Of a DNA stretch of 64,000 bases, positions 4,034 through 53,450 are shown one piece after another (position 1 is the first letter of the stretch; each line of letters opens with the position of its first letter). The DNA lies in contig CP000068.1 in NCBI GenBank assembly GCA_000002445.1, forward strand, positions 1,088,001 through 1,152,000, read 5' to 3'. The notes under the pieces are model-generated. The model was given only the letters and a program-made list of their open reading frames with translations, was not told the origin of the DNA and made no database searches. The translations under genes were made by a program, and so were the position numbers. Source of the DNA: Trypanosoma brucei (lineage: Eukaryota).

Positions 4034-4663
4034 CGTGGACAATGTCCTTTTTGCAATGTTAGACTCCCCTTCGCGCGTAAATGGTGAAGAACGAAGAAAA
4101 AAAATGCAGCGTCAAAGCGGAATCGTAGCATAAATCACATGAAGTTTTGCATGAAACTGCAAACGCTTCGGAATATGTGCCTTCTCCAGCTATGTCAAGC
4201 CAGCCCACCAGATTATCCAATAATCACACAAATAAACAATGTAAGCTGTTGACAAGTTGTCAAAAGGGAGGAAACCCCCTTTCTACCACGCCGGGGGCAG
4301 ATGAACTTCTGTTCTTGTTTCCCATTAAACAGATCCCCCAAAGTCATCAGTTAATCGCAGAGGGAGGTAGGCAGCGTTTACCGTAACAACACAGCGGCAG
4401 CCAGTCAAAACGGGGTACACAAAAGCTTGTGACTTTCTCTATCTATAAACAAAGGGAAGAGAACAAGAAGGCTGAGCCTTGAGGCACCAGCCGCCCAGGA
4501 GCGAAAACAGGCGGGCCCTAACCCTTCCTTGACATCCTTGTCAGCATCCCAAAATTTCGTCGAGGAGCGCTTATGGGGGGAACGAAGATAGGCAACTTCT
4601 TGCAGATGGGCATACGACTGCACATTTTGCACATGTGCGAAACTGGAAGCCGCTTTATGAGCG

Positions 4664-8815: not shown

Positions 8816-10576
8816 CTAAACGCAGTCATGTAGGAAATAAACACGCAACTCATCTTCGGTTGCTTCCACCGCCAGAAAGTACAACAGATAGGCCGCATCC
8901 ACAGAAACTTGTCGGGCCATGTTGCCTACGTGCCCTTCAGAGAGGGGTACCATTTCATTCTTCGGTCCGAAAGGGCATAGTAACGCATCCACTGGACAGT
9001 CAAATTCGCCTACGATGCCGTTACAAACAAGCTCTGCCCAACAAATAGCCCTCAACACAGCGGTAGGAACAAGACAAGTGTCTGGGCTAAACTTCCGACA
9101 TACTCGACTTACATATTTCAGTAACGACAGCATTGAGTTGGACGGGGCCCAAACACCAACAGTGCATCCGGGTTCGGTTAGGCGCCGGTGGTCCCAAACT
9201 ACGGTTCCTCGGGTAAGGACCCTACATAATTCATCGGCCGCCTTCACTGCCGTATGTACGTTGCCAGATACATCAAAAGCTTTGTGCCCCGCAACCGCAT
9301 CCTTATACGAGGTAAACAAGGACTCAAGCCACGACGCGCCTTTCTTTGAAGGTGGATAAGAGCCATCCGCTTTAGCCCAAGGTGAAAAACAATGACCGAG
9401 TGCAGTATTCAGACTCGACAGCCATGCGTCGCGTTCAGAGCCCAAATTTCCCACCTCCTCGTGTCGTAGATGCTCCAAAAGAACCTTTCGGAGCAAGCTC
9501 ATGCGACTTCGTATATCATCATTACTCGAAAATTTTGGTAAAAGTGAAGGAGTCGTGATGAAACCGTACCACAGAACAAGCTCCGCATCTGTGTACGAAC
9601 CATATTGCAGAAATACCTGATCTCCCTTCGATACAGGAGCTGTCGTCACAAATATGTACGCGCCCATACATCTGTCAAATCTCATAGTGGCATTATTTGT
9701 TAGTGAATGATTGAAATAATCGACCCATGGAATGACAGCCCAAACCTCAGGATCGTAAGAAAACCCACGGCTCATGAGGGTGTTATAAGCCCAAATAAAC
9801 TGTTGCATTGTAAACGGTGTTGCACACGACATCGTGCAGCCACCAGAAGGTTGCACCAAGGGAAGATGCAGCGAAAGAATTGACATCACGATATTGAACT
9901 CTTTTTCTAGCTGCATCCGTTCTTCCAGCACCTTTCTTCTGTGCCTCTCAAAACACAGAAAGTTACGAAGACACGCACCACCCCCTTCACAGTCATGTGA
10001 CCTTGCGACGCCCACACAAGTACTGTCCAGGTGCGTGTGTTCCAACAACTCAAGGAGGTTATCGTACTTGGTTGGTAGGGACAATAGCCACGTTCTCATC
10101 CAACGGTGTATGAAAAATGGCCCTAAATCTGCATTTCCGCCTCCAGTGGACACGGTAAACATAACTTCAGAGGCACTACCAGCTTTTTTATGGAAAGCAT
10201 TGTTACTAAACCGACCACATTGCCCTGCGGCAACGAGCAAAGAGAAGATAATCATGGAGCCTGGTGATAACATTTGGTCTAAATCCCCTAGGATATCCAC
10301 AGATGTCTCCCTTCTCGACCTCCCATCGAAGGGGGTCCAACCGAGACGCTCTTGCTTCTGCTGAGAAATCCAAAAATTAAGATGATTTCGAGCCTTCTGG
10401 GCGGTAATCATAGATGACTCTGGAATCTTTACTATCACTGTGTTCGACGGCAAATTTTCCGTGGCAATAACGCCGTGTCCACCACCCATTTGGTGGATTG
10501 GCAGTACGCCGATGGAAGGGTGGAAGAAAGCGCCTTCTTCCTGCAACATAAGTTGGATAAGCGACACGCTCTCCAT
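8816..10576 (-). CDS. SET-domain protein-lysine methyltransferase, SETD3/SETD6/Rubisco-LSMT-like.
   Basis: The track ORF extends to 10756 with a TTG start. The extra 60 codons are hydrophobic junk (MLPDLHFIVWFIRLPQ...). The first ATG is at 10576 (the reverse complement of ctccat is atggag), giving 'MESVSLIQLMLQEEGAFFHPSIGVLPIHQMGGGHGVIATENLP', which is a typical LSMT-type SET N-terminus. SET C-terminal motifs are present: 'VDYFNHSLTNNATMRF' (NHS...) and 'GDQVFLQYGSYTDAELVLWYGF'. Confidence 0.65.
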   Translation of the reverse strand: MESVSLIQLMLQEEGAFFHPSIGVLPIHQMGGGHGVIATENLPSNTVIVKIPESSMITAQKARNHLNFWISQQKQERLGWTPFDGRSRRETSVDILGDLDQMLSPGSMIIFSLLVAAGQCGRFSNNAFHKKAGSASEVMFTVSTGGGNADLGPFFIHRWMRTWLLSLPTKYDNLLELLEHTHLDSTCVGVARSHDCEGGGACLRNFLCFERHRRKVLEERMQLEKEFNIVMSILSLHLPLVQPSGGCTMSCATPFTMQQFIWAYNTLMSRGFSYDPEVWAVIPWVDYFNHSLTNNATMRFDRCMGAYIFVTTAPVSKGDQVFLQYGSYTDAELVLWYGFITTPSLLPKFSSNDDIRSRMSLLRKVLLEHLRHEEVGNLGSERDAWLSSLNTALGHCFSPWAKADGSYPPSKKGASWLESLFTSYKDAVAGHKAFDVSGNVHTAVKAADELCRVLTRGTVVWDHRRLTEPGCTVGVWAPSNSMLSLLKYVSRVCRKFSPDTCLVPTAVLRAICWAELVCNGIVGEFDCPVDALLCPFGPKNEMVPLSEGHVGNMARQVSVDAAYLLYFLAVEATEDELRVYFLHDCV

Positions 10577-11802
10577 GTTAACAGGACAAAAAGCTTCTAC
10601 CAATTTTACTACTGATACCAATTTCAGAACATAAAGCACACAATTGAAACTAATGGGGAAATAGAGATAGCTTATTACTCGCACATGGCACGAAACTAGA
10701 ACCAACAGCTGAGGAAGTCTAATGAACCAAACAATAAAATGAAGGTCCGGCAACAAAAAGGAACTTGGAGACCGAATATCGACAACAGATCATGGGGATG
10801 GAGAGGTTTAGCATACGCATGGAGAAAGCAAATACAGTTATCGGTGAGACGACACACAAAAACAAAGAAGCTAATATTACGTGGACGCAGGGCTGAAACA
10901 CCATTCAGAGCTGGTCTATACTGTCACCAACCCGCCAAAGCAGCAGCAAAGCAGTAAATATATACCTACGTACGTATATACTTGAAGATACCTATCTCCA
11001 GAATGGCAAAGACGATCCTCATACCCACATCGCCCCTCTACCGGACACACACACGCACACCCTGGGGTGGCATAAGCACATCTAAAAAGCATACCCAATA
11101 TGACATTTGGTGTTACAATTTTTGGCATGTCACGCGAGTGCACACATGTGCGAAGGTGAAAGCTTGCTTTACCCCCAAGTAAACAGAAGATGGTTGCCCA
11201 CCAAGTAAGCCTGCATACAACCCAGTGAGAGCGCGCAGTGCGCACCTTTGTAACAAAGTTTATTTGCACGATATGCGCAAGTAACAGGAAATTCCTAAAA
11301 ATATGTGGCGTATTTTTTGTAGTCGTATATGTAGGTTGTATCCCATAAAGCTGTCGTCCACCATGTTAATATACAATAGTCAAAAAACAAGAGGTTTCTG
11401 AATAGATGACATGGGATATGGTGTAAGCAAAGTAGTAAAGACGTTGGTACGCACCTAAACTCGCTGATCACGTGGGTAAGGTGAAGCACAAAGGTAAAAA
11501 AAATAACTCTGATCTCCACTTTAGCGACCTTCAGTATTCCCGACAGACCACCAATTACAATGCAGTTGCACTAGAATATCCCATATACACACTATTAAAT
11601 ATACCATCAACGTTTATTCATAATTTACAGTGTGCTGTGCCAAAAAAAAAATTTTGCTTACACTTTGTCGCAAACACATCTCGGTGGCATCACGTGTGCT
11701 AACACGGGGCAAGCAGTACGGTAGTGCAGCAATTTCTTCACCAATCTCTGTACTCGGTAAACTGGTCGAGGTACACCCCAGTCTCTTTTTTTTTACATAA
11801 TA

Positions 11803-11814
11803 GGGGGGGGGGGG
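11803..11814 (+). repeat. Homopolymeric G12 tract inside the strand-switch region.
   Basis: The tract is read directly from the sequence: 'ataataGGGGGGGGGGGGtaaagg'. Confidence 0.9.
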
Positions 11815-12670
11815 TAAAGGCTGCCTCAGTGGCGGTGCCACGCGAAAGAGATTGCCGAAGGATATTACCGATGGAATCTCTCCACCAGCGGGAGAATTAC
11901 CTTACAGTTTTCAACTAGAAAGGTGACAATAAAAAAAACGCACCTCGTTCACGATCCAATGAGCTTGTAAGTGTCACCGTAGTGTACATGTAGCGCCACC
12001 GCAACTACCAGCAGATAGACATATACGTGCATAAGTTACCCAACAATGCTACGTCTTCTCACAAGGCGCAGGCTGACCTCCCCCCGTCTATTTACCCAAT
12101 GCGCCAGACTTTTGCAACGCACAATCCCTCCTAGCACACCAGACAGCCCTTAATTCAGTATCAGCAAATTTGGACACGATAGTTCACAACCCCTCTGTCC
12201 TCTCAACCACACTTGTCCGGCTACCGGCACGTGCGCGTCCCATTTTCGTGTACAGCCCCACTTTCCTTCAGCGTAACTGCACGCGCACGTGCCGCTCCCA
12301 CAACTAGGCAGATTAAAAGGCGGCTGAAAGACTCCTGGCAGTGAACCCCTACACACGTTGCGCCGCACCTGCTTGTTGGGCTCCCGCTCCTCGGCCCCTG
12401 TAGGACGGTGTGGCCACTGAAGCGTCCTCTGACTTCATTTACCCGGCGGAAGCGTCCTATCGATCATATTCTTTTACCTGTTAGCTCTCTTTCTCGGGCG
12501 CTTCCTCTTGAAATTTAGCCCTCCCCCTCCCCTTAGGGCTCGAGCGTATAGTTCACCGCCCAGAACGCATTGCCACCACGCCCTCCCAGCCTCTCGGCCA
12601 GTTCTTTTTTTTTTTTTTGCGTTGCCCTCTCCGACTCCTCGAAAGGCTTAATGTTTTCGCAGTCTCCATT

Positions 12671-12682
12671 CCCCCCCCCCCC
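12671..12682 (-). repeat. Homopolymeric C12 tract, which is G12 on the minus strand, inside the strand-switch region.
   Basis: The tract is read directly from the sequence: 'ccattCCCCCCCCCCCCgctttcag'. A T14 run lies ~55 bp upstream at 12605-12618. Confidence 0.9.
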
Positions 12683-14068
12683 GCTTTCAGGCCAGTGCTC
12701 CCCTAGCTAATTAAAGACGCTGCTTCTCCATACGTGGTGGTATCTTTCAAAGCGGATCTCCCCCACAACAGCCTGTGCACTTGGTATACAAACCCTTTCA
12801 TTGCCACAGTTGGCCCCAACATATTTCCCTTTTTGACGAGTGTAACAGCGCCTCGTAGGAAGGGTATTACCCCTCAAGGTTTTGTAACCACTCTCATTCT
12901 TCATATATCTTGTTTTCCCCCTGCGCAGCCATCTCCTGTAGGGCGTCTCCTCTCCTCGGTTCCCTCTCGTGAGCCGTGTGTGCGTGCGTGCATGTGTAAT
13001 AATGCGTTTTTGCAGCTCTTTAGAGGGGCTGAGAGTTTTAACATGCATCCGAAACGGCCCTCAACACACGCTCTGCGGTAGCACACCCGTTTAGATTTGC
13101 TCCTGCAAGGCAATACCCATCGACGACATTAGAAGTGGAGTCTGTTACCATCCGTGGTGCTGCTGGACTTGAGTTCGACATAATGACGTTTGCGGGTGGC
13201 CCTCCATTTCGGACTCCGTGTCATTGCGACACATCCCTCGCACATTTTCGCACCGTCCTTTGGTGGCCTCCACCGTGCCGAAGACCCTCTTGTGACTCCC
13301 TCCGTTTTAAATATTCTCGAGCTTTCTAGCGAGCACTGCTGTGTGGTACGATCAGCTCTGCAACCGGGCGGTGTGGGTGTATCCGGTTTTCATCTGCACG
13401 AGGAATCTTACACAACTATTTTCATTGTGGCTCCTTTCGATGACGGTATGTTCGACGCCCCCTTTTTTTTAAAATGTTGTGTTACGGATTCATGTCGGTG
13501 CAAATGTGATGTGGATCCTGCACTTAGGGGCGACGATGGTCGGTGGTGTTTGTGGAGCTCCCGTCTATCTGGGTCCCTTCACGGAATCTGTACCGTGTCG
13601 TGTTGAGATGGCCTCGCCGCCCCCTTTTAAGATCGGATAGAGGTAACAAGTGAATTGTCGGGTATTAGGGTTACTCTCTTCTTTTGCGTGGAAGTATATT
13701 CCCCACCCGATGCAGAAGTGACGGTTCTGTTTGCGGAACTGGTTGAATCAAAACATATCTTTGCCGGTCTTGATGGGTGCGGCAGCCTCTTGATATTTTA
13801 TTGTAGCCCGAGTAGAAGTGGAGCCGAGGTCCGCGGTAAGTTGTTGGCCGGTCATTGTTGTAGCGTATGGTGCGCCACGTGATCTATCGTTTTTTATTTC
13901 CCCCTCATTTTCTTCGTAGCCGTCATTTTTCCTTTTTTTAGTATTGTAGAAAAGATGTGTATGGATGGTAAATGACGGATCATTCCCCTCGTTAGAGGAA
14001 GCTACTTTACTAATGCTTTTGTTGCCTTAGTCAAACTGCTTGTCTAATGAAACCGTGCTAAACTGTGG

Positions 14069-14091
14069 TGTGTGTGTGTGGGGGGGGGGGG
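14069..14091 (+). repeat. (GT)6 followed by G12, ~345 bp upstream of the SMC3 ATG.
   Basis: The element is read directly from the sequence: 'ctgtggtgtgtgtgtgGGGGGGGGGGGGaagg'. Confidence 0.9.
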
Positions 14092-14384
14092 AAGGCCGTG
14101 TGCCGCGCCTGCTAGCACACCACAGCAGGTAACCATGCGCGGACGTTGCTTACACCTTGGTAGCTTCACTATCATTTTGCTGCTTAATGGTACCGTTTGT
14201 TAATTACCTTCAAGCAATGAGATAACCTTCTTATTACTGTTTTGTTTAATGTTGTCTTTTGTTCCACATCCTAAGCTTCTACATCAGGAGAGTGGTGTAT
14301 GTTGTTGCGCTGACTTTGTACTTTCCCCCTTAGACTGCACGGTTGCCAACATGAAATAACCTGAACTGATTGTTTAACATTACC

Positions 14385-14417
14385 GTTTGTTTTGTTTTTT
14401 GACTACCCTCTTTCTTA
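14385..14417 (+). promoter_or_regulatory. Polypyrimidine tract with an AG dinucleotide; candidate trans-splice acceptor region for SMC3.
   Basis: The tract is 'tttgttttgttttttgactaccctctttcttAG', 19 nt upstream of the ATG at 14436. This matches the usual trypanosomatid architecture, where an AG dinucleotide follows a polypyrimidine tract. Confidence 0.45.
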
Positions 14418-14435
14418 GACCACTTACAGGATACT

Positions 14436-17400
14436 ATGTATATCAAAAATATTCTTATTTCCGGATTCCGCTCGTACCGAGAACAAGCGTTTGAGCAGGA
14501 GCTCTCGCCGAAAAACAACGTGATCGTTGGGAAAAACGGAGCAGGCAAGTCGAATTTCTTCGCTGCGATCCAGTTTGTTCTTTGTGAGAAATTTATGAAC
14601 CTTTCTTCTGTAGAGAGAAAGGATCTGTTCCACGTTGGATCCGGGAGGCCTGCGTTGCCCATCTTTGTGGAAATTATTTTTGATAATTCTGATGGTCGTC
14701 TTGTAATACCGGGAAAATCTGCTGTGAATGAAGTGCGTATACGGCGTACACTGGGCCTTAAGCAAGACGAATTTCGTGTAAATGACAAACGGTTCACGGC
14801 CACTGATATCCGGCAACTGCTGGAAAGCGCTGGGTTCTCGTCAACCAACCCTTACTATATTGTTGAGCAAGGCCAAATTTCAAGTTTGGCAAACATGAGT
14901 GATGAAGAACGGTTCCAACTTATAAAAGATGTGGCAGGTACGAGAGTTTATGAAGTAAGGCGAAAGGAGAGCGAGAAGATTTTGGAAGAAACGGAGGTGC
15001 AGCACGAGAAAATCGGGGAGTCTATTGCTCAACTCGAGGAGCGTCTTGAAGAGCTTCGGTCTGAGTCTGATGAACTCATGTCGTTCCAAGAGATTGACAA
15101 AAAAAGAAAGTGTGTTCAGTACTGTATCCTTAACTCAGACCTGAACGCTGCAAGAGAAGAACTTCGGAGGCTGGATGATGAGAGGAACTCTTACATGTCC
15201 CGCAGCGGAAGGGATCATTACGATATTGATGAAGCGAAAGCCATCATCAGTGAAGCTGAATCGGAGATACGTAATTGCGATCAGCGTATCTTGAGGTTGG
15301 AGGGGGAGCTACAGGACCTGGATACGAAAAGGGGCACATTGATGCGTGAAAAAGAGATTGTGCAATTAAATTGTATGTCATCTCTCAACACGATGAAAAG
15401 AACAGAGAGTGTGAAAACGAACGTTCTGAAGAGGGTTGGAGAACTGAACAAACAGATAGCAGAGACGAATGCTGGCTTGAAGAAGAAGCTTGCTATCATA
15501 CAACAGGAGCAGCTTACTGTTGATCAGAAAAGTGAGGAACTGTCCGCCATAGAAGGAAAACTTAAGGCACTTGAAGCGAGACGGGCTCGTCAATTGCTTT
15601 TCAAGAACAAGCAAGAGCGGGACAACTGGCTTGCTGAAGAGTCTAATAGAAACAGAAAAACCATAGAGAATTATAAACATGAATTAAAGTTTACGTGTAG
15701 TGAGATACAGAAAGTTGAAAAGCAAATTGAGGATGAGGAAACTGAACAGAAAAATTGGGAGGAATCATTAAAGAAATCAGATTCAGTTATAACGGAGCTT
15801 AAATCAAAGTACGAAGAGACGATGGCCTTCAGGAATTCACTGAGCGTTAAAAAGGGTGACCTCTGGAGAGAACAGTCTGCCCTTGTACAGACGGTTCGGA
15901 CACTACGCGAGAATCACAACAAAGCCCGCAGTCAACTCGAAAAAGTAATTCGCTCAGATGTTCGTCAAGGGTTGCAGTCTCTTAAAGAGGTTCTGGACGA
16001 GCTGGCCGACCCATCGCTAACAAATGCTGTACATGGCCAATTAATTGAGCTCATCGGCGTCTCGAACGGCTACGAGACAGCTGTTGAAGTGACAGCTGGT
16101 AATTCACTCTTTAACGTTGTTGTTGATTCATTCGAAGTTAGTGCGATTTTGCTGGAGAATATGAACAGCAGGAAGAAACCTGGACGTATATCATTTTTCC
16201 CAATGGATACGTGTAGGGGCACGGTGACACGGTTCGGTGAAGGTGTCGAGTGTAGCAGCTTGGCAGACCATATAATTTGTGATCCGAAGTTTGCTGGCAT
16301 TGTTGCCGAACTATTTGGAAATACTGCTGTTGTGACCTCCATTGCAGATGGTGAAAATGTTTCAAAAAAGTACGCATGTGACGCGGTAACGTTGGATGGG
16401 GATCAAGTCAGCCGGAGAGGTGGTATAACAGGTGGTTATATCGAATCTCGGAGTTTGAAACTCTCTGCTTTCAAGTATGAAAAGGTTGCTGCTGCAGATT
16501 TTTTAAGAGGAGATGAGGCCCTGAAGAAGATTACTCAGGAGTTGGACAACGTTAACCAGGCCTTAACAGGTGTTGTGACCACCCTTAGCTCGCTCAAGAC
16601 GGAGATGTCCTCCATAACGAAATCTAAAGACGGCTCACAAGTTGTCGAACAACATGCACAAAGAAAAGCAGCACTGGATAGGCAGAAGGATAAGTTATAC
16701 GCATCAAAGAAGCAGTTGGAGGACATGATAAATACTGCCCAAGTAAACATAGCCACCTACCAGCATGAGGGAAAAGAAGCGTTCAAATCGGCATGGAGCG
16801 AAGGTGAACAACGAGAGTTGGAGGCGCTGGTGAAAGATGTCGACGACCGCCGCATGAAACTCTCAAAACTTCAGCGGCGGAGTGCACAGTTGGCTGCGGA
16901 AGTGAGGGCCTTGGAGGATATGCGGCTTAACTTAAACGTCCAACTCACGGCTACTAAAAAGTTCTTTCACGATTCCGCTCAACTCAGTGCAAGTAATACC
17001 GCTATTACTAATGAAAAAGAAAATCTTGACGATGATATTTCTTTTAACTCGCAGCAAGCCAACGAAGTCTACAGGTTATTGGATGAGACCAGGAAAGAGA
17101 AACTTCGCAGGGAGGAAGAAGTCGAGAAGCTTAGGAGTGGCTACCTTGAGGCTCTGAATTCTATTCAGGAAAGAAGAGATTTCGACGGAAGGACTCTAAT
17201 GCAGCAGGCACATTGCATTAGACGTCGTGATGGCGCGGCGGAGAAGATAAGGCAACTGGGCGTAATACCCAAGGAAGCTGAGACATATTCTGGGTTGTCC
17301 AGAGAAAAACTAATACAAACACTCAAAGAGTGCAATAAAGCTGCTGAGAAATATGCACATATAAACCGAAAGGCAGTTGATCAGTACAATACATTAATGG

Positions 17401-18035
17401 AAACGAAAAACGGTCTTGTCGCCCAGAAAGAGGATCTTCAGAATGAACTGAAGAGTATTCGTGACTTAATGGACCACCTCGACTGCAAAAAGGATGAAGC
17501 AGTTGAGCGGACATACAAGCAAATTCAGTTGCACTTTGAGCAAGTTTTCAAAGAGTTAGTTACGACCGATGACTGTTACGGTAAACTTCAACTCATCATG
17601 TCAAACACCAGAAAAGAGGCAGGTGAGGATCCGTATGTTGCTGTTCAGATAAAAGTTTCTTTCGGACTAGGAGCTGCCGTCACTGACCTGAAACAACTGA
17701 GTGGTGGACAAAAATCACTTGTGGCGCTGGCGTTGATTTTTGCTATTCAGCGCTGTGATCCTGCACCATTTTATCTTTTCGATGAAATCGATGCTGCCCT
17801 CGATACTGAGTATCGGGCGTCTGTAGCGAAGCTTCTTTCTAAAGAATCAGGGTCGTGCCAATTTATTACAGCAACATTCAAAAACGAAATGCTTGACGTG
17901 GCCGATCACGTGCTCGGTGTTTTCTTTCACAACAAAATAAGTCGTATTCAAGCAATTACGGTTGAAGAAGGTAACAAGCTTTTGAAACAAGCAGTTGTTG
18001 AGGAAAGAAAAAGAGTCCGTGAGCATGTTGAATGA
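14436..18035 (+). CDS. SMC3: Structural maintenance of chromosomes protein 3 (cohesin SMC3).
   Basis: The 1199-aa ORF has a true ATG. Its N-terminus 'MYIKNILISGFRSYREQ...NNVIVGKNGAGKSNFFAAIQFVL' closely parallels the canonical SMC3 N-terminus, with Walker A in GKNGAGKS. The hinge is 'LIELIGVSNGYETAVEVTAGNSLFNVVVDS'. The C-terminus carries the ABC signature 'LSGGQKSLVALALIFAIQ' and Walker B 'FYLFDEIDAALD'. Long coiled-coil arms lie between these elements. Confidence 0.9.
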   Translation: MYIKNILISGFRSYREQAFEQELSPKNNVIVGKNGAGKSNFFAAIQFVLCEKFMNLSSVERKDLFHVGSGRPALPIFVEIIFDNSDGRLVIPGKSAVNEVRIRRTLGLKQDEFRVNDKRFTATDIRQLLESAGFSSTNPYYIVEQGQISSLANMSDEERFQLIKDVAGTRVYEVRRKESEKILEETEVQHEKIGESIAQLEERLEELRSESDELMSFQEIDKKRKCVQYCILNSDLNAAREELRRLDDERNSYMSRSGRDHYDIDEAKAIISEAESEIRNCDQRILRLEGELQDLDTKRGTLMREKEIVQLNCMSSLNTMKRTESVKTNVLKRVGELNKQIAETNAGLKKKLAIIQQEQLTVDQKSEELSAIEGKLKALEARRARQLLFKNKQERDNWLAEESNRNRKTIENYKHELKFTCSEIQKVEKQIEDEETEQKNWEESLKKSDSVITELKSKYEETMAFRNSLSVKKGDLWREQSALVQTVRTLRENHNKARSQLEKVIRSDVRQGLQSLKEVLDELADPSLTNAVHGQLIELIGVSNGYETAVEVTAGNSLFNVVVDSFEVSAILLENMNSRKKPGRISFFPMDTCRGTVTRFGEGVECSSLADHIICDPKFAGIVAELFGNTAVVTSIADGENVSKKYACDAVTLDGDQVSRRGGITGGYIESRSLKLSAFKYEKVAAADFLRGDEALKKITQELDNVNQALTGVVTTLSSLKTEMSSITKSKDGSQVVEQHAQRKAALDRQKDKLYASKKQLEDMINTAQVNIATYQHEGKEAFKSAWSEGEQRELEALVKDVDDRRMKLSKLQRRSAQLAAEVRALEDMRLNLNVQLTATKKFFHDSAQLSASNTAITNEKENLDDDISFNSQQANEVYRLLDETRKEKLRREEEVEKLRSGYLEALNSIQERRDFDGRTLMQQAHCIRRRDGAAEKIRQLGVIPKEAETYSGLSREKLIQTLKECNKAAEKYAHINRKAVDQYNTLMETKNGLVAQKEDLQNELKSIRDLMDHLDCKKDEAVERTYKQIQLHFEQVFKELVTTDDCYGKLQLIMSNTRKEAGEDPYVAVQIKVSFGLGAAVTDLKQLSGGQKSLVALALIFAIQRCDPAPFYLFDEIDAALDTEYRASVAKLLSKESGSCQFITATFKNEMLDVADHVLGVFFHNKISRIQAITVEEGNKLLKQAVVEERKRVREHVE

Positions 18036-20060
18036 TGTCGATAATTTTTTTTATTATTTAGGTGCTAGGGCATGTGGGGAGGAAAGGTTACTTATTATTT
18101 TCATTTTCTATCTACGCCATTTGGATGACAGAGGGTTCGCTGTTCCGTTACACTGAGCAAAAATGTAACGCAACGTTTTACATACGAGTATGGCTTGATG
18201 TATAGAACATTTTTTTCTTAACGGCATTTCTTTACATATGGTAACAGTAGTTTTACTTGGGTAACATATTTCCACTTCCTCTACCTGACCAATTTACTTA
18301 GCATCCTATATACTAGAAAGGCATATAATATGTAGTGTCGGTTCTTGTGCATTGGAAAAAGAGGGCGGCTACACGGTCTTTGCTTTGTGCAAAACTTGTT
18401 GTTACCCTACGGGAGTTTTTCCTTTGAAAACCGTTTGTATACCCTCAATTTGAAGTTTTTCAGCGTCTTTATGCCTGTACGAGCGGGGTAACTTCGTGAA
18501 GCTGCGACCCCTTGAATACGTCTCTGACTCGCTGAAACACACTAGCGTGTGGCAAAGGGCATATTCTTTGTTTCGGGAGGTTTCTGGCTTGTTACTGTGT
18601 GGTCGACTTATGTGTGTTGCTCACGTGGCTGACAAGACAGAATCGATAGACGACAAGTAAGCGCCACCACTACAGAAGACTGTCACAGAATTTGGTGCAG
18701 GAAATGACTGTTACAGTTGTTTGAATTCCCCTCATGCTTTGCAGCAGCGCCTAATCTACCGCTGATTTAACGTGCAGTGCTACACCACGCCTCCCACAAT
18801 GTACGACCTACAAAGTGAACGGGTACAACTCCCTGCCAGGAACGGGCGGCGTTAAGGCGGCAATACAGAAAAGACCACTGTTATCACGTAGGCAAATATT
18901 TTTTTTTTTATGTTCATCGACATGTAGTCGTACATAAAACGAAATGACTTATTGTGACATTAACCACTCCACTTACATGTTAATATAATATTCGTTTTTA
19001 ATATTTTCTCTGCACGTCAGCCCGACCTGTGAGCTGACGCCAGCGGATAATCGTGTTCAAATTTAGCGTCACCGTATTATATATTAATATGTATATATTT
19101 GTGCAGAGCATAAAGCGACCCTGCACGTATATCGGCTTTCTAATGTTAAAATAAGTATTCGAGAAGGCGGGACAGTTACTACACTACGATCATGTGACTG
19201 CAAGGTCGCTTCACCGCCATTGTAAAAATGACCGTATACTGGAGAGTAAAAATCCAGATGAAATGTTGTCGCTCCGAGTGCGGGTCAAACAATTTCTTCA
19301 GGTTTTGTATAAGTGGCGACATTCGAGTAGAAGTTGATGAGCATACTTAAACCCAAGATTCATAATTGGCATTTCACTTGCAGACAGTGAAGTAGTTATT
19401 TTTTTCGGCAACAACTGATTGTCCTCGGCGTTTCATTGTCATCTCAGCTATTATTTTCAACCATCTTTTTAGCCAGCGGTTTGAATACATTTTCGGCAGT
19501 GCTCGTTCGTATCGCTGTACACTCATCCTCTCTCTTTCCCTCTAGATATATGTCCAAACTGTTAGGAGGGAGCAGTCTATCAAGGGATGGAGGAGTGAAG
19601 GAGGTTTTGATGTGGTGCAAAAGGTGGAGAGAAATGAGAAACTATTCCAACTATCCTCTTTCCTTTTTTCTTTTCTTTCTTTTTTTTTTTGTCTTCTCTG
19701 AGTGGAGGTATGAATCGTTTACTTTGGTTGCTTTGAACTTTTCTCCATTTGAAGGAGTATGTTACTCAAAGTGTCGCATCTCTACACTTTCACAAATTGT
19801 ATACATATCCTCTCTCTTTTCTTGAAAACTTCTGTCCATGAATTAACTGTGATTCCTCTTATAGCGTTTTTACGCGTAAAGGAACCATTGTTCCCTTCAG
19901 GTGCACCACAGATAATAGCACAGCGGCGCCAACAACCAGCTGCACGTGAAGTATCGTTTAGTTGCATATTTTATTGGTTAGGTTTCTTGCATATTTCACG
20001 TGTTACTCATTTTTAAAATGTTTTGTATGTTTCTTTAGTGTTGGGAACGAACGTGCCAAC

Positions 20061-45397: not shown

Positions 45398-46735
45398 ATG
45401 CAGTCGTCAAGTTTTGCTGGAACGGGGGTGTTTCCGCCCCCGCCAGCTTTCTTGCGAGGCAACAACTCCATTAGGACAGGAAAGCGAGTGGGGCGCCGTC
45501 ATCATCATTTCACTGATGAAAACGTTGTGGACCTTCGTAGTATTGAAACTGGAGTGGAATGCAGCACTCGTATGGGACACAGTCGCAGTAACACAGCAGC
45601 TGAAGATCCTCCATTGCGTGCGCGCCGTCGTATCCCACATGGCAGTAACCCACCAACAAAGATATTAGACTTTCTTTTCTTGGGTGGCGTTAGTGATGCA
45701 ACAAATCCTGAGTTCCTCCGACGTGAAAATATCGTGACCATTCTGAACGTCTCACGAGAAGAATATTGGTCTGTGGACAAGGGAATTACGATACATCCTT
45801 TTCCTCTAGAGGACAACGCGGAGGAAAACATCCGGAAGTTCTTCTCACACACCTACAGGCTGCTGGAGGCTGCGCGCAGTGCGTATTACAGCTCAAAAAG
45901 GCAATGCGAGCGGTCAACCTCAACAAATGACGCCGCCACCAATTCAAATCTCGATTACCACAACGGTAACGAGAACGGTAGCGGCTGTAGTGCAGGGACT
46001 AATGTTGTTAATGGTTACTGTGAGGGCAGTAACGGTGGTACTAGTAGTAATATTAACAACTCCATGAATGAAGCAACTGACAATTGTGCGATTAGTGCTT
46101 CTCCTGCCCGGCCGCCTTGTGTGCTCGTGCATTGCCGGTACGGCATCAGCCGCTCCGTAACGATTGTGCTTGCTTATCTCATGCGTCGTAACGGATGGTC
46201 CCTTAACGATGCTCTGCAATACGTCATGTGCCGACGACCGCATGTGGAACCCAACGTTGGTTTCATGAATGTTTTGCTTTCGTTTCAGCGGGATATGGAT
46301 CCACAGAAACGAGACATCCAACGAAACTTGCTTCCTATTGTAGTTCGGAACCTTCCCCCTAATACATCGTCGTCTGCCGTGCATAAATTCTTTGAAGACC
46401 GCGTTGGTTGTGTCCATAAAGTGGCCACTTTTCCATCTCGTGTTGCCGCAGGAAATTCGACTCGAGAAAATACTGATGGTAACAGCAAGGATATTAGTGA
46501 TGAGAGCAGCACCAGTGATTGTAATGATGAAATCAGTTCAGGTGCGATGTGGCTTGTGGTGTTTGCAACGCCGGACTCCGTACATTTGGCCCATCGTTTA
46601 TATCATAAGCAACCGGATTTCTTTGCGCCACTCGGTGTTAGTGAAGGGCGCCGCGTGAAATTAACAGCTCTGAGCAAACTTCATCGATCCCCACGTCCCA
46701 TCACTGGAGGGGAGTCGTTGGCTAATGAATCCTGA
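45398..46735 (+). CDS. Dual-specificity protein phosphatase with N- and C-terminal extensions and an Asn/Ser/Gly-rich insertion.
   Basis: The ORF has a true ATG. The catalytic P-loop is 'VHCRYGISRSVTIVLAYLMRRNGWSLNDALQYVMCRRPHVEPNVGFMNVLLSF' (HCxxGxxRS). The upstream 'ILDFLFLGGVSDATNPEFLRRENIVTILNVS' is the DUSP start, with the D-loop Asp in 'PLED'. Confidence 0.8.
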   Translation: MQSSSFAGTGVFPPPPAFLRGNNSIRTGKRVGRRHHHFTDENVVDLRSIETGVECSTRMGHSRSNTAAEDPPLRARRRIPHGSNPPTKILDFLFLGGVSDATNPEFLRRENIVTILNVSREEYWSVDKGITIHPFPLEDNAEENIRKFFSHTYRLLEAARSAYYSSKRQCERSTSTNDAATNSNLDYHNGNENGSGCSAGTNVVNGYCEGSNGGTSSNINNSMNEATDNCAISASPARPPCVLVHCRYGISRSVTIVLAYLMRRNGWSLNDALQYVMCRRPHVEPNVGFMNVLLSFQRDMDPQKRDIQRNLLPIVVRNLPPNTSSSAVHKFFEDRVGCVHKVATFPSRVAAGNSTRENTDGNSKDISDESSTSDCNDEISSGAMWLVVFATPDSVHLAHRLYHKQPDFFAPLGVSEGRRVKLTALSKLHRSPRPITGGESLANES

Positions 46736-46739
46736 ATTG

Positions 46740-49700
46740 GAAAAAAAAGAAAAAACTCGATACGAAACGAAAAGAGAAAGGAGGGAGGGGAAAAAAAAAA
46801 GAATATCACAAGGAAAGCGCTAACGGTGGAGTGGACGGTGATCACTGAATTTATAACATGATGCAAGCGGTGTATCACCCGCAAGCGGCAAAATTGACTG
46901 TGCGCTGAGAAAATCTTTCCTTTTCTTTTTCTTTTTCTTTTTTCGTATTTATTTCTGTTGTACTTCAACTCTAAGGGATATGGGGGTTATGTGTGTGTAT
47001 GTGTCTATGCGTGTGCGCGCGAAAATAGGGAAAAACTATAAAGGAGCAAATAGCATATGATCCACAGAAAAGAGGAAACGCGGGTTCAAAAGCGAGGAGA
47101 AGCGTGTGGGCAAGCAACCATTTGAAAGAAACAAAGTACGACAAGAAAAAATAAAAATAGAAACAAAATAAAATGGCCAAATAAGGGGGAGGAGGGAAAT
47201 CAGGGGAAATTAAATTTTATTTATCCCATGAAAAATTTGCGTGTCTATGAGACCGAAGTACATGCAAGTTGTTGTTGCTGTTGCTCTTTTTTTTTCTTTT
47301 TTTTGAAAACATGAGTGAATTATGAATGGAGAAAAGTAGGCGCAAGATGCGTGTGGCTGATTCGTGCCGACGTTTGTATTTTGTGTATCTTTACACCCGT
47401 TTCATATTTTAATGTTTGAAAATTAATTCTGTTTTCAGTTGATGAGGTGTCGTCTGTGTGGGCGTATATACCTTTCTCTTATCTGTTTTTCTTTTTTTTT
47501 TTTGAGAACAAAATGAAATGGAAAGATGAAACGAAAAAAAAAGAATTTTACAAACGGACGACAAAACAAACAACAGAACAACAATGGCAGCTGTTCACAA
47601 ACGCAAAAAAACACGATAAATAAACGGATGTTTAAGTGTGTGTGTGTGTGTGAGAGAGAGAGGTGGGGAAATGGAGAAAGTTAACGTGAGACGTAAAAAT
47701 GTAAATGGGGTGATGTCGAAGGGGATTATGAACGCCTCCATGCGTGGCTTTATTATTATTATTATTTATTTACTTATTTATTTTAGTTGTAATGACTGAG
47801 GGAATGGAGATAAATTTCACACCAGAGGATGATGGGAATATGAAGGAAAATAAATAAATAAATGAAAATATAAAGGGGGAAATGTGCAGCGGAATGGTTA
47901 ATTTGGATGGAAGAAATCGTAAAATGATAAAGAGAAAGAGAGAGAGAGAAAAGAAAACTTGATTAAAATAAATAAATGGAGCGAAACAAATAAATGATGT
48001 GCAATTCGAAATCCTCTACCTTCTCATTGTGTGAATTCCTTTTTCTCAACCATCTTCTTATTCACGTTTCTACCCCCTTTTTTTTTCATTGTTTTGTTTT
48101 TTCGTTTGTTCCTGTTCCTTTTTTGCCTTTTTTTTGTTTTCTGCTTTCTTGTATAAATGTCCGAAAGGCGGACAGGTGAGGGATGAGTAATGAAAACAAA
48201 AGGTAAACAAAACAACTTTATCATCATTACAATGTCATAAACACCAAAAATAAAATAAAATAAAAAAACACGCACAAACACAAATATTCAAGCGGGCAAT
48301 TAACCACGTGGAGTGATAAGGGCACATATAAAGATAGAAATATATATATATATATTTCTTTATTTATGTCTCTTTGTATTTGCGTGTGTGTGTTTTTTTT
48401 TGTTTTACTCGTGAGGTTTATATGCCCTTTCTTTTTTTTCTTTTCCGTCAGGTGATGGAAAACTCCTCCTGTGTTTATTATTGCTTCAATGTTGTGGTGT
48501 AAACATATTCGATATGTAAAAGCAAATACGTTCAGGTGTTTTCTTTTTCCCTCCTTCTTCTTTTTTCTTTCTGTCCATTTTCTTTTTTCTTCTTCTTCTT
48601 CTTTATATTTTTCTCATTTTTTTCATAGCAATGAAAATGATATGCGTGATGAAGAACATACAGTGCGAGAAGATGAAATAAGAAAAGAAAGGAAATGAAA
48701 AGAAAAGAAATGAGAGAAAATGTTCGGAAGTAAAAAAAAAACAACAAAAAATATTTTGTTTGTTTGTTTATTCCCCCACTCACAAACTGACGTTTGTCGG
48801 ACTTTCAATTTCCCCCATTTTTTCTTATTTTACGTGTGTTGCTGAACTCATATTTGTGATTTTTTATTATTACCATCACCATTACCATTTTTCTTTTATG
48901 TATGTTCGTTCCCGTATTTTATCCCCCATCTCCTTTCTTCTTTTTTCTTTTTTTCACTCCGTTGCGTTTTCTAATTTCTTTTTCTTTTTTAGGTCCGCTG
49001 CCGTCGGTGTTGTTTACTCGATGCTGCACCTCCGTTTCACAACACTTTTCTTCTTTCTGGGATGTCTCACCTTTTCCCTTTTTTTTTTATTTTAATAAAA
49101 AAAAAATAAAAATATCCCGCACTCCTTCCAATGGTTCCATTGATGTCTCGTTTATTTTTAAAGCGGGGCGTTTATTATTATTGTTATTATTATTATTATC
49201 TTTGATTTAAAAATTTTACTCATCTTTTTTGACAGCTTGGACTCCTCATTTACTCACACGTGCGTGTCCTTTTTGTTTTTTTTCTCCCTTCTTATTGTTC
49301 AATTTGATTTTTTCAATCTCTCTACGTTTTTGCTTTATTTTCCTTTTATTTTTATTTTACTGATCTTTGTTTTTCGGATTGTGTTGGTGGGAAGTGGTTT
49401 TTGTTTCTTTTTTTTTTTTTGTACGTCTGTTCTTGTAGTATTTCCCTCTCTTCTTCTTTTTTTTTCTTATTTGGTTTTACCATCAATTAATTATTTACTT
49501 CGGTCATTAATTCACTCCAACAATTATCCTTTCCTTCCTTCCTTCCTTCTTTGGTACCTTTTCTTTTTACCGTATTTTCATTTAATTGTGTTTTTTTTTT
49601 TGGAAAGGCCGAAGATTTTTTTTTTTTCCGCTCCCTCTTTTTTTTTTTTAGTTGGGTTTGTTCCGTGACAGAAATCTTTTTTTTTCTTTTTCTTCCCCTC

Positions 49701-52700: not shown

Positions 52701-53450
52701 AATTACAAAAATAAGGGAACATATATAAAAAAATAAAGATATATGTAGTAATAATAATTATTATTATTATATTGCTTTATCATTATATTATTTAATATTA
52801 TATTGTTATGAAGAGTAAAATCTTTTCAAATTATTTTTCTGAAGTGAAGAAGGGTCAAAAAGCAAACGATGCAACCCATTAAACACCATCGGGGAATTAA
52901 CCATTCCTTGTTTCTCTTTTTTTTGTTTTGTCTAGTAGGGAGTTGTTGGTGGTGAACGTTTCGAAACAAACCATATCTTTTTTTTTCTTTTTTTACTTTA
53001 TGTCCCACTTTACCTTTTTTTTTTGTTTTCTTCTCTCTGGTTTGTTACTCACCTGGCAATATGTGATGCACAGCTCAGCCGTGTTTTCACGCACAACTCC
53101 TTTTTTTTAAAAAAAAAAATGCATTCATTTGTATGAAGATCGCTGCTGATTTGTTGCTTCACTTTACGGGGGCATCAGCCTCATTTTATGTTACTCCTTT
53201 TTATTTTTTTTTTTATTATTCCAAATATGTCACATTGCTCTTCTTCCCTTTTTTTTTTTCTTCGTGTGTGTGTATGTTTGTTTCGAATTAAAATTTACCT
53301 TTTGTTACGTGTGACATTTCTCGTATTCTTCCAACTCTGGCGGAAGGAAGAGGAAACTGACGAAAAAAAAAAAAAGTGAAACCTCCCTCCCGTAGGTGCC
53401 TTATAGCGCTTGGGTGTGGAAATAGAAATACCGATAATTAGATTTTTAGA
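46740..53450. repeat. ORF-free low-complexity spacer of ~6.7 kb made of alternating purine-rich and pyrimidine-rich blocks with embedded microsatellites.
   Basis: Plus-strand A/G-rich blocks lie at about 46740-47700 and 50880-51540. Plus-strand T/C-rich blocks lie at about 47990-49700, 50400-50880, 51590-52060 and 52900-53390. Microsatellites include (TTATT)n at 47755-47785, (TTA)n at 49165-49200, (CCTT)4 at 49538-49553, (TTTATATA)4 at 49750-49790, (AAAT)6(TA)9 at 52139-52181 and (AT)n at 48343-48358. Homopolymer runs are frequent. The only ORFs translate to poly-F/L/K junk. Confidence 0.85.

What the first reader, a model, noticed from the sequence alone, without database searches (positions are those of the whole stretch)
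10577..14435. Divergent strand-switch region with oriented 12-nt G tracts and a (GT)6G12 element upstream of the first plus-strand gene
The only unidirectional-to-unidirectional switch in the window has three perfect 12-nt homopolymer tracts. Two are G on the plus strand (11803-11814 and 14080-14091). One is C on the plus strand, which is G on the minus strand (12671-12682). A T14 run lies at 12605-12618. Each G tract is G on the sense strand of the polycistron it faces. This matches the only sequence feature reported at trypanosome divergent strand-switch transcription start zones, namely sense-strand G runs. The 14069-14091 element, 345 bp upstream of SMC3, adds a GT repeat, consistent with reported GT-rich Pol II promoter elements in T. 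brucei. The C12 lies to the right of the first G12, so the two divergent initiation zones appear interleaved rather than cleanly back-to-back.
Basis: partly seen in the sequence, partly recalled or inferred. Interest (0 to 1): 0.5.

Follow-up and report, generated by a model that had tools for sequence, protein, structure and literature searches.

The report
Known trypanosome transcription start region
The G-tracts are real. They lie in the already published divergent RNA polymerase II start region between the SET16 and SMC3 genes on Trypanosoma brucei chromosome 5, and they match the known oligo-G / GT-rich promoter signature, so the finding is correct but ordinary.

Summary
Shuffles give about 0.03 G10 matches per window, against 12 observed.

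The window is T. brucei TREU927 chromosome 5 (window position = Tb927_05_v4 coordinate minus 1,088,000). The region is the strand switch between Tb927.5.3500 (SET16) and Tb927.5.3510 (SMC3). Kolev 2010 already lists both units as divergent Pol II transcription units.

Wedel 2017 reports the same sequence words as the top coding-strand-enriched 10-mers at start-region 5' ends: G10 (132 coding vs 17 non-coding), GTGTGTGTGG (18 vs 1) and GGTGTGTGTG (15 vs 0). The kind of feature is therefore already known.

Two parts of the interpretation need correcting.
- SMC3 is not the first plus-strand transcript. The published spliced transcript Tb5.NT.79 (12929-14315, +) contains the (GT)6G12 element.
- The "interleaved" reading is not established. 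All composition switches fall at 12.0-13.3 kb, so G12 at 11803 sits on the non-coding strand of the minus unit.

The tracts vary in length among T. brucei subspecies and are absent from the orthologous T. cruzi and T. melophagium regions.

The parts
8816..10576 (-). SET16 (Tb927.5.3500) coding sequence, with its ATG at 10576. It is the first annotated gene of the minus-strand unit. Its major splice-acceptor site is at 10649 (5'UTR 73 nt).
   Evidence: ORF. SET Pfam domain on the orthologues. Kolev Table S12 gives SAS 1098649 and UTR 73.
10767..11397 (-). Tb5.NT.76, a published trans-spliced, polyadenylated novel transcript of 630 nt. Its most-used (primary) splice-acceptor site is at 11350. 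Minus-strand transcription must therefore start to the right of 11397.
   Evidence: Kolev 2010 Tables S7 and S12. CT at 11351-11352 is AG on the minus strand.
11803..11814 (+). G12 tract, preceded by T9 at 11786-11794. It is G on the plus strand but lies in minus-unit territory, so it is on the non-coding strand of the minus unit's leader. It is length-polymorphic (G13 in DAL972).
12605..12682 (.). Central homopolymer node: T14 (12605-12618, reading TTTTTTTTGC on the plus strand), 52 bp, then C12 (12671-12682, which is G12 on the minus coding strand). It sits at the switch of coding-strand 10-mers and 140 bp left of the cumulative keto-skew minimum (12821). It lies between the first minus acceptor site (11397) and the first plus acceptor site (12929).
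   Evidence: Wedel Dataset EV1.
12929..14315 (+). Tb5.NT.79, a published trans-spliced, polyadenylated novel transcript of 1386 nt (0.69 RNAs per cell). It is the true first plus-strand transcript. An AG at 12927-12928 and a polypyrimidine tract lie directly upstream.
   Evidence: Kolev 2010 Tables S7 and S12; sequence.
13883..14002 (-). Possible decayed relic of a 170-199 aa gene. In T. cruzi, T. melophagium and T. conorhini that gene lies between SET16 and SMC3; where the locus was read (T. cruzi, T. melophagium) it is the first gene of the minus unit.
   Evidence: Family HMM hit of 13.0 bits, the best of the whole window in six frames (E = 0.01). None of 200 shuffles reached that score.
14066..14091 (+). 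TG(GT)6G12 composite on the plus coding strand. It contains 7 distinct Wedel 10-mers, including ranks 1, 2 and 4. It lies inside Tb5.NT.79, 328 nt upstream of the SMC3 splice-acceptor site, and is length-polymorphic.
14419..18035 (+). SMC3 (Tb927.5.3510) mRNA from its splice-acceptor site at 14419 (5'UTR 17 nt). The coding sequence is 14436-18035.
   Evidence: 100% identity to XP_845021; Kolev Table S12.

Best explanation
This is the already mapped divergent RNA polymerase II transcription start region of T. brucei chromosome 5, between SET16 (Tb927.5.3500) and SMC3 (Tb927.5.3510).

The oligo-G, oligo-T and (GT)nG(n) tracts are the known 'GT-rich' coding-strand signature of such regions. Rigid homopolymer DNA excludes nucleosomes. 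GT-rich sequence on the coding strand favours directional, dispersed Pol II initiation and H2A.Z deposition.

At this locus the strand switch lies at about 12.0-12.8 kb. The T14/C12 node (12605-12682) sits at that switch and most likely forms the central nucleosome-poor start node. From it the minus unit runs left (first acceptor site 11397) and weak plus-strand transcription runs right (first acceptor site 12929, Tb5.NT.79).

The (GT)6G12 element lies 1.4 kb inside the plus side, in the most GT-rich stretch (13.4-14.4 kb). It is at most a second, SMC3-proximal start or H2A.Z element. G12 at 11803 is a minority-orientation tract inside the minus unit's leader.

What is shown: the identity of the locus, the published transcripts, and the match to the published 10-mers. 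What is inferred: the nucleosome and promoter roles at this particular locus, and which tract fires in which direction.
For: - Locus identity: SMC3 is 100% identical to the T. brucei TREU927 protein. The coordinate offset of 1,088,000 is read from two genes' published splice sites and UTR lengths (SET16: 1098649 - 73 = 1098576; SMC3: 1102419 + 17 = 1102436); the same offset places the Tb927.5.3520 and Tb927.5.3490 starts inside the ORFs.
- Published start region: Kolev 2010 Table S14 lists both units as 'Divergent', and the text reports 5'-triphosphate read enrichment at divergent units.
- Signature match: Wedel 2017 Dataset EV1 gives G10 132 vs 17, GTGTGTGTGG 18 vs 1, GGTGTGTGTG 15 vs 0 and TTTTTTTTGC 13 vs 2, coding vs non-coding strand, in the 5' fifth of 199 start regions.
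- Local distribution: mapped on the window, these 10-mers fall on the minus strand from 10479 to 11928 and on the plus strand from 12523 to 14390. The 14001-15000 bin has the densest plus-strand signal outside the AT-rich block.
- Function elsewhere: synthetic GT-rich promoters drive orientation-dependent transcription and H2A.Z deposition and are nucleosome-depleted.
- Nucleosome exclusion: oligo-d(G.C) runs longer than 7 bp are absent from T. brucei nucleosomes.
- Skew switches: pyrimidine at about 12.0 kb, T-A at 12,355, keto at 12,821 and G-C at 13,318.
- Bracketing: the published first acceptor sites place the starts between 11397 and 12929.
Against: - No nucleotide-resolution start-site or H2A.Z data for this locus could be read with these tools, so the role of each individual tract is inferred.
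- G12 at 11803 is in the minority orientation for its side, and the model does not explain it.
- Tract lengths differ among three near-identical T. brucei-group genomes.
- No G/C run of 8 or more lies in the orthologous T. cruzi or T. melophagium switch regions, apart from a C9 next to SET16 in T. cruzi. Exact length and sequence conservation are therefore not required.
- Endogenous start regions drive far more transcription than GT-rich elements alone (11.6-fold). Sequence-specific core promoters have also been reported that I could not compare.
Confidence: 0.8

Rival explanations
1. Interleaved (overlapping) divergent start zones. The plus unit would start at G12 (11803) and the minus unit at the G12 on the minus strand (12671-12682). 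About 870 bp would then be transcribed from both strands.
For: - Both central tracts would then be G on their unit's coding strand, the majority orientation genome-wide (132 vs 17).
- Each would lie a similar distance upstream of its unit's first splice-acceptor site: 1,115 nt to 12929 and 1,274 nt to 11397.
- Plus-strand transcription must begin left of 12929.
- Kolev 2010 reports sense and antisense 5'-triphosphate reads at all start regions.
Against: - G12 at 11803 lies left of every compositional switch.
- It is surrounded by minus-strand coding-type 10-mers at 11496, 11640 and 11928.
- Wedel 2017 describes divergent start regions as separate H2A.Z domains with a non-transcribed gap between them, and a 4:1 sense bias.
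- C12 paired with (GT)6G12 already forms a canonical back-to-back pair, without needing the tract at 11803.
Confidence: 0.25
2. The tracts are passive by-products. They would be slippage-prone homopolymers accumulated under strand-asymmetric, transcription-associated mutation in non-coding DNA. In this case they mark the start region but do not cause initiation.
For: - All three G/C tracts, and 8 of 9 indel events among the three T. brucei-group sequences, are in homopolymer or simple runs.
- Similar runs occur outside the switch region: C11 at 200-210, C10 at 54919 and C8 at 51642.
- No long G/C runs occur in the orthologous T. cruzi and T. melophagium switch regions.
Against: - The runs cluster in the switch region (P = 0.002 to 0.019).
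- The genome-wide strand bias is concentrated in the 5' fifth of start regions.
- Synthetic elements built from these 10-mers drive orientation-dependent transcription and H2A.Z deposition.
Confidence: 0.2
3. T14 and C12 are simply part of the polypyrimidine signal for trans-splicing of the first plus-strand transcript, and G12 at 11803 (C12 on the minus strand) plays the same role for the minus unit. On this view they are RNA-processing elements rather than promoter elements.
For: - The plus strand is 56-66% pyrimidine from 12001 to 13000, and the minus strand is pyrimidine-rich left of 12000.
- Each central tract is therefore C on the locally pyrimidine-rich coding strand, 247 nt upstream of acceptor site 12929 and 406 nt upstream of acceptor site 11397.
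Against: - Acceptor site 12929 has its own polypyrimidine tract directly upstream, at about 12890-12925.
- Functional tracts are typically 10-40 nt upstream of the acceptor site (Maree 2017).
- C-run 10-mers on the coding strand are not among the enriched words, whereas G10 is.
Confidence: 0.1

Closest known systems
T. brucei divergent Pol II transcription start regions (Siegel 2009; Kolev 2010; Wedel 2017)
   Same: It shows head-to-head polycistronic units and a several-kb gene-poor interval. Low-abundance transcripts lie near the starts. Oligo-G runs and G/T skew are on the coding strand. This exact locus is listed in Kolev 2010 Table S14.
   Different: Nothing categorical. Locus-specific detail: one of the three G12 tracts is on the non-coding strand for its side. 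The most striking element, (GT)6G12, lies inside a transcribed unit rather than at the outer 5' edge.
GT-rich dispersed promoter elements of T. brucei (Wedel et al. 2017, EMBO J)
   Same: The 14066-14091 element is made of 7 of the published enriched 10-mers, including ranks 1, 2 and 4. T14-GC matches TTTTTTTTGC.
   Different: The tested promoters were synthetic 210 bp and 416 bp concatenations. No activity has been shown for a single 26 bp natural element or for this locus. 'GT-rich' there means mostly long G or T stretches, not (GT)n dinucleotide repeats. The junction words (GT)nG(n) are nevertheless in the list.
Leishmania major chromosome 1 strand-switch region (Martinez-Calvillo et al. 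[quoted passage not shown]
   Same: A short central zone with poly(dG:dC) tracts, from which both units initiate.
   Different: It is a different genus and the sequences are unrelated. In L. major, SMC3 lies 4 kb from the start of its chromosome record, with no gene called upstream, rather than at a strand switch. A G10 on the coding strand does lie 2.8 kb upstream of it there.
Sequence-specific Pol II core promoters in T. brucei (Cordon-Obras et al. 2022, Cell Rep)
   Same: Two oppositely oriented directional promoters are reported within divergent strand-switch regions (summarised).
   Different: The paper is not held in the library, so its motifs could not be compared with this locus.

Membership tests
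T. brucei divergent Pol II transcription start region | Lies between two head-to-head polycistronic units | tested here: met
   All large ORFs left of 10576 are on the minus strand and all right of 14436 are on the plus strand. The same synteny is found in T. b. gambiense, T. equiperdum, T. cruzi and T. melophagium.
T. brucei divergent Pol II transcription start region | Experimental start signal (5'-triphosphate RNA enrichment) | tested here: met
   Met by literature look-up only. Kolev 2010 Table S14 lists Tb927.5.3500 (-) and Tb927.5.3510 (+) as the first genes of 'Divergent' units, and the text is. Nucleotide-level positions could not be accessed.
T. brucei divergent Pol II transcription start region | H2A.Z / H2B.V / H4K10ac / BDF3 enrichment | not testable with these tools
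   No ChIP-seq tracks or start-region coordinate tables were available (searches found none).
T. brucei divergent Pol II transcription start region | Oligo-G runs on the coding strand near the 5' end of each start region | tested here: inconclusive
   C12 (12671-12682) and (GT)6G12 conform. G12 at 11803 is on the non-coding strand for its side of the switch. It conforms only if the two start regions overlap.
GT-rich promoter element (Wedel 2017) | [quoted passage not shown] | tested here: met
   There are 9 hits from 7 distinct listed 10-mers in 14066-14091. The plus/minus partition of hits runs across the switch region.
GT-rich promoter element (Wedel 2017) | Orientation-dependent promoter activity and H2A.Z recruitment | not testable with these tools
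   This needs reporter assays and ChIP.
Canonical intramolecular G-quadruplex motif (G3+N1-7 repeated four times) | Four G3 runs separated by loops, at least 15 nt | tested here: not met
   Each tract is an uninterrupted G12 with no flanking G3 runs, too short for a three-tetrad fold. G4 ChIP enrichment at T. brucei start sites is reported in general.
Structured RNA gene or tRNA gene in the switch region | Match to an Rfam family or a tRNA model | tested here: not met
   There are 0 tRNAs and 0 Rfam matches at gathering score.

The most novel reading that the evidence does not exclude
Two linked readings are not excluded.

(1) The crossed G12(+)/G12(-) pair, 857 bp apart, marks truly overlapping divergent start zones. 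The central 0.9 kb would then be transcribed on both strands, an arrangement not described as typical for T. brucei.

(2) The strand-switch point moved about 1.3 kb leftwards in the T. brucei lineage. This would have followed decay of an ancestral first gene of the minus unit, whose relic lies at 13883-14002 (-). The (GT)6G12 element would then be left in the old switch region, and the T14/C12 node would be the new one. That would be a rare traceable case of promoter-region relocation in a polycistronic genome.
Probability: 0.15. Interest if true: 0.35.

Novelty: already known. Interest (0 to 1): 0.12.

Why it matters
This result adds little. Oligo-G and GT-rich coding-strand tracts at T. brucei Pol II start regions were reported in 2009-2017, and this locus is in the published list of divergent units. 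It mainly shows that the first-stage reader can recognise a trypanosome start region from raw sequence.

Two small points could be useful to specialists.
- The composite (GT)nG(n) is a recurrent word family at start-region 5' ends. It is visible in the published 10-mer table but not singled out in the main-text passages I read.
- This locus offers a compact natural test bed for dissecting what oligo-G tracts do. It has three G12 tracts in both orientations, published flanking splice sites, and a possible gene relic.

Tried and rejected
- Exact-protein look-ups of the TREU927 SMC3 returned nothing. The gambiense and equiperdum copies worked instead.
- Siegel 2009 and Cordon-Obras 2022 are not held. 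The original G-run description and the sequence-specific promoter motifs therefore could not be read. What I say of Siegel 2009 beyond Wedel's citation is from memory.
- A 'polyG' text search hit only 'polygenic'.
- The supplements of Maree 2017 and Staneva 2021 hold no start-region coordinates for this locus.
- Siegel 2010 mentions SMC3 only as an expression example.
- No tRNA or Rfam family is present.
- The 113-aa minus-strand ORF at 12707-13048 is called as a gene in the T. b. gambiense record. A weak tblastn hit there (E = 0.045) was rejected. It is out of order relative to the better profile hit, the ORF is highly basic, and it overlaps the published plus-strand transcript.
- The T. vivax contig has only 821 bp upstream of SMC3, and L. 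major SMC3 lies 4 kb from the start of its chromosome record with no gene called upstream. Neither gives a comparable switch region.
- A genome-wide survey of G-run order at other T. brucei switch regions could not be done, because no tool gives access to the rest of the genome.
Full report
**1. Observation**

- G12 at 11803-11814
- T14 at 12605-12618
- C12 at 12671-12682
- (GT)6 at 14068-14079, running straight into G12 at 14080-14091
- SMC3 ATG at 14436, 345 bp further on

Large ORFs are on the minus strand up to 10576 and on the plus strand from 14436. This is therefore the window's only strand switch.

G10 occurs 12 times on the two strands, against 0.03 expected from dinucleotide-preserving shuffles. 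The whole 64 kb has only six G/C runs of 8 or more. All three runs of 12 lie in the 3.86-kb switch region. For 3 of the 5 runs of 10 or more, P = 0.002 under a uniform null and 0.019 with a non-coding-only null. No tRNA or Rfam family lies in the window.

**2. Identity of the locus**

The 1199-aa ORF is 100% identical to SMC3 of Trypanosoma brucei brucei TREU927, which lies on a 1,608,198-bp record.

Kolev et al. 2010 (PMC2936537) Table S12 gives:
- Tb927.5.3510: splice-acceptor site 1102419, 5'UTR 17 nt
- Tb927.5.3500: splice-acceptor site 1098649, 5'UTR 73 nt

So window position = Tb927_05_v4 coordinate minus 1,088,000. The same offset places the starts of Tb927.5.3520 and Tb927.5.3490 inside the matching ORFs. 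Tb927.5.3500 is SET16.

Table S14 of the same paper lists Tb927.5.3500->3100 (-) and Tb927.5.3510->3990 (+) as 'Divergent' putative Pol II units. [quoted passage not shown] The region is thus a published start region.

**3. The tracts match the published sequence signature**

Wedel et al. 2017 (PMC5579346) divided 199 H2A.Z-defined start regions into fifths. They listed 10-mers at least 6-fold enriched on the coding strand. In the 5' fifth the top entries are:

| 10-mer | coding | non-coding |
|---|---|---|
| GGGGGGGGGG | 132 | 17 |
| GTGTGTGTGG | 18 | 1 |
| GGTGTGTGTG | 15 | 0 |
| TGTGTGTGGG | 12 | 1 |
| GTGTGTGGGG | 11 | 1 |
| TGTGTGGGGG | 6 | 1 |
| TTTTTTTTGC | 13 | 2 |

The element at 14066-14091 is built from seven of these words, and T14-GC matches the last one. 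The junction words show that (GT)n running into G(n) recurs at many start regions.

Synthetic promoters made from such 10-mers drive orientation-dependent transcription and H2A.Z deposition and are nucleosome-depleted. Maree 2017 found oligo-d(G.C) runs longer than 7 bp absent from T. brucei nucleosomes. The kind of feature, and its likely mode of action, are already in the literature.

**4.

Kolev's Tables S7 and S12 place two trans-spliced, polyadenylated novel transcripts inside the 'gene-free' interval:
- Tb5.NT.76: window 11397->10767, minus strand
- Tb5.NT.79: window 12929->14315, plus strand, 0.69 RNAs per cell

The sequence agrees. There is an AG at 12927-12928 with a polypyrimidine tract upstream, and a CT at 11351-11352.

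Two things follow. Minus-strand initiation lies right of 11397 and plus-strand initiation lies left of 12929. Also, the (GT)6G12 element lies inside a plus-strand transcript. It is not upstream of the first plus-strand transcript, as the title of the finding says.

Mapping the Wedel 10-mers shows minus-strand hits from 10479 to 11928 and plus-strand hits from 12523 to 14390. The only central exceptions are G10 on the plus strand at 11803 and G10 on the minus strand at 12671.

The composition switches are:
- pyrimidine skew at about 12.0 kb
- cumulative T-A minimum at 12,355
- cumulative keto (G+T) minimum at 12,821
- cumulative G-C minimum at 13,318

The plus strand is 58-61% G+T from 13.4 to 14.4 kb. 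The minus strand is 56-62% G+T in 10.6-11.2 kb and 12.0-12.4 kb.

By the criterion that has experimental support (GT-richness of the coding strand), the locus reads as follows:
- C12 (G12 on the minus strand) sits at the very 5' edge of the minus-side zone.
- (GT)6G12 sits in the plus-side zone.
- Together they form a canonical back-to-back pair.
- G12 at 11803 is the odd one out, on the non-coding strand of the minus unit's leader. About 11% of G10 words in Wedel's 5' fifth have that orientation.

**5. Mechanism I consider most likely**

The T14-N52-C12 node (12605-12682) lies between the two first splice-acceptor sites and at the 10-mer/keto switch. Two rigid homopolymers 52 bp apart should hold a nucleosome-poor patch.

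From that patch, Pol II would initiate leftwards into the minus unit and, more weakly, rightwards. Rightward initiation would yield Tb5.NT.79 through the acceptor site 247 nt downstream. This fits Kolev's observation of sense and antisense 5'-triphosphate reads at all start regions.

The GT-rich stretch at 13.4-14.4 kb, with (GT)6G12, would add plus-strand initiation or H2A.Z deposition close to SMC3.

These steps are inferred. The locus identity, the transcripts and the signature match are shown.

The interleaved model remains possible, and I give it about 0.25. It puts both central tracts in the majority orientation and at similar distances from their first acceptor sites (1,115 and 1,274 nt). 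Against it, Wedel describes divergent start regions as separated by a non-transcribed gap, and the local composition does not fit.

**6. Comparative evidence**

The orthologous regions of T. b. gambiense DAL972 and T. equiperdum OVI are 99.3-99.5% identical to the window. All three tracts are present but differ in length:

| Tract | TREU927 | DAL972 | OVI |
|---|---|---|---|
| 11803 | G12 | G13 | G12 |
| 12671 | C12 | C11 | C13 or more, then N gap |
| 14080 | G12 | G14 | G10-C-G7 |

Eight of nine indel events among these sequences are in homopolymer or simple runs. At this divergence, conservation says nothing about selection.

The SET16/SMC3 divergent arrangement is conserved in T. cruzi and T. 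melophagium. Their switch regions have no G/C run of 8 or more, apart from a C9 next to SET16 in T. cruzi. Long oligo-G tracts are therefore a T. brucei-lineage trait at this locus, not a conserved element.

**7. Side observation**

In T. cruzi, T. melophagium and T. conorhini a conserved 170-199-aa hypothetical gene lies between SET16 and SMC3; where the locus was read (T. cruzi, T. melophagium) it is the first gene of the minus unit. T. rangeli and T. grayi also encode homologues. No salivarian or Leishmania homologue was found.

I built a profile from eight members and scanned the whole window in six frames. The best hit is a minus-strand fragment in the switch region: 13883-14002, 13.0 bits, E = 0.01 over 2,535 fragments. 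None of 200 shuffles reached 13 bits.

This may be a decayed relic. If so, the switch point has moved left in the T. brucei lineage, and (GT)6G12 sits in the ancestral switch region.

**8. Verdict**

The feature is an already known kind at an already listed locus. Interest is low. The only open points are which tract fires in which direction and whether the relic is real.

Noticed in passing
window 13883-14002 (-), within fragment 13751-14026; compare L004 5309-5908 (-) and L005 4611-5165 (-): Probable decayed relic of a 170-199 aa hypothetical gene. In T. cruzi, T. melophagium and T. conorhini that gene lies between SET16 and SMC3; T. rangeli and T. grayi also have homologues. It is the best six-frame hit of the whole window to the family profile (13.0 bits, E = 0.01, 0 of 200 shuffles as good). 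No salivarian homologue was found.
   Followed up: partly
window 47000-53400: A roughly 6-kb gene-free block of very low G+C (27-35%) lies inside the plus-strand unit, between the ORFs 45398-46735 and 53451-54686. It is dense in A/T homopolymers and short simple repeats but has no long tandem array. It also gives many hits to the T-rich Wedel 10-mers on both strands.
   Followed up: partly
window 12707-13048 (-) = L001 4272-4613 (-): A 113-aa, highly basic ORF is called as a gene in the T. b. gambiense DAL972 record. It overlaps the published plus-strand transcript Tb5.NT.79 in antisense and is probably a spurious call.
   Followed up: partly
window 11397-12929: Kolev 2010 numbers novel transcripts Tb5.NT.76 and Tb5.NT.79 on either side of this interval, but NT.77 and NT.78 are missing from the tables. 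They may be the SL-lacking polyadenylated start-site transcripts that the authors say they excluded. If so, they would mark the primary transcript leaders.
   Followed up: no
window 18302-20014 (+): Published novel transcript Tb5.NT.80 (1,712 nt, 1.67 RNAs per cell) fills the gap between SMC3 and Tb927.5.3520. No long ORF is listed there.
   Followed up: no
L006 1203-1212 and 1922-1929: In L. major Friedlin, SMC3 lies 4 kb from the start of its chromosome record and no gene is called upstream of it. A G10 on its coding strand lies 2.8 kb upstream, and a C8 lies 2.1 kb upstream. This is an oligo-G tract at a non-divergent start in another genus.
   Followed up: no
L002 about 4230-4250 (T. equiperdum), aligned to window 12186: T. 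equiperdum carries a 19-bp insertion (CAACCGAACTAGCCATCAG) in the central switch region that is absent from both T. brucei subspecies. An N-gap directly follows its C-tract, so the homopolymer broke that assembly.
   Followed up: no
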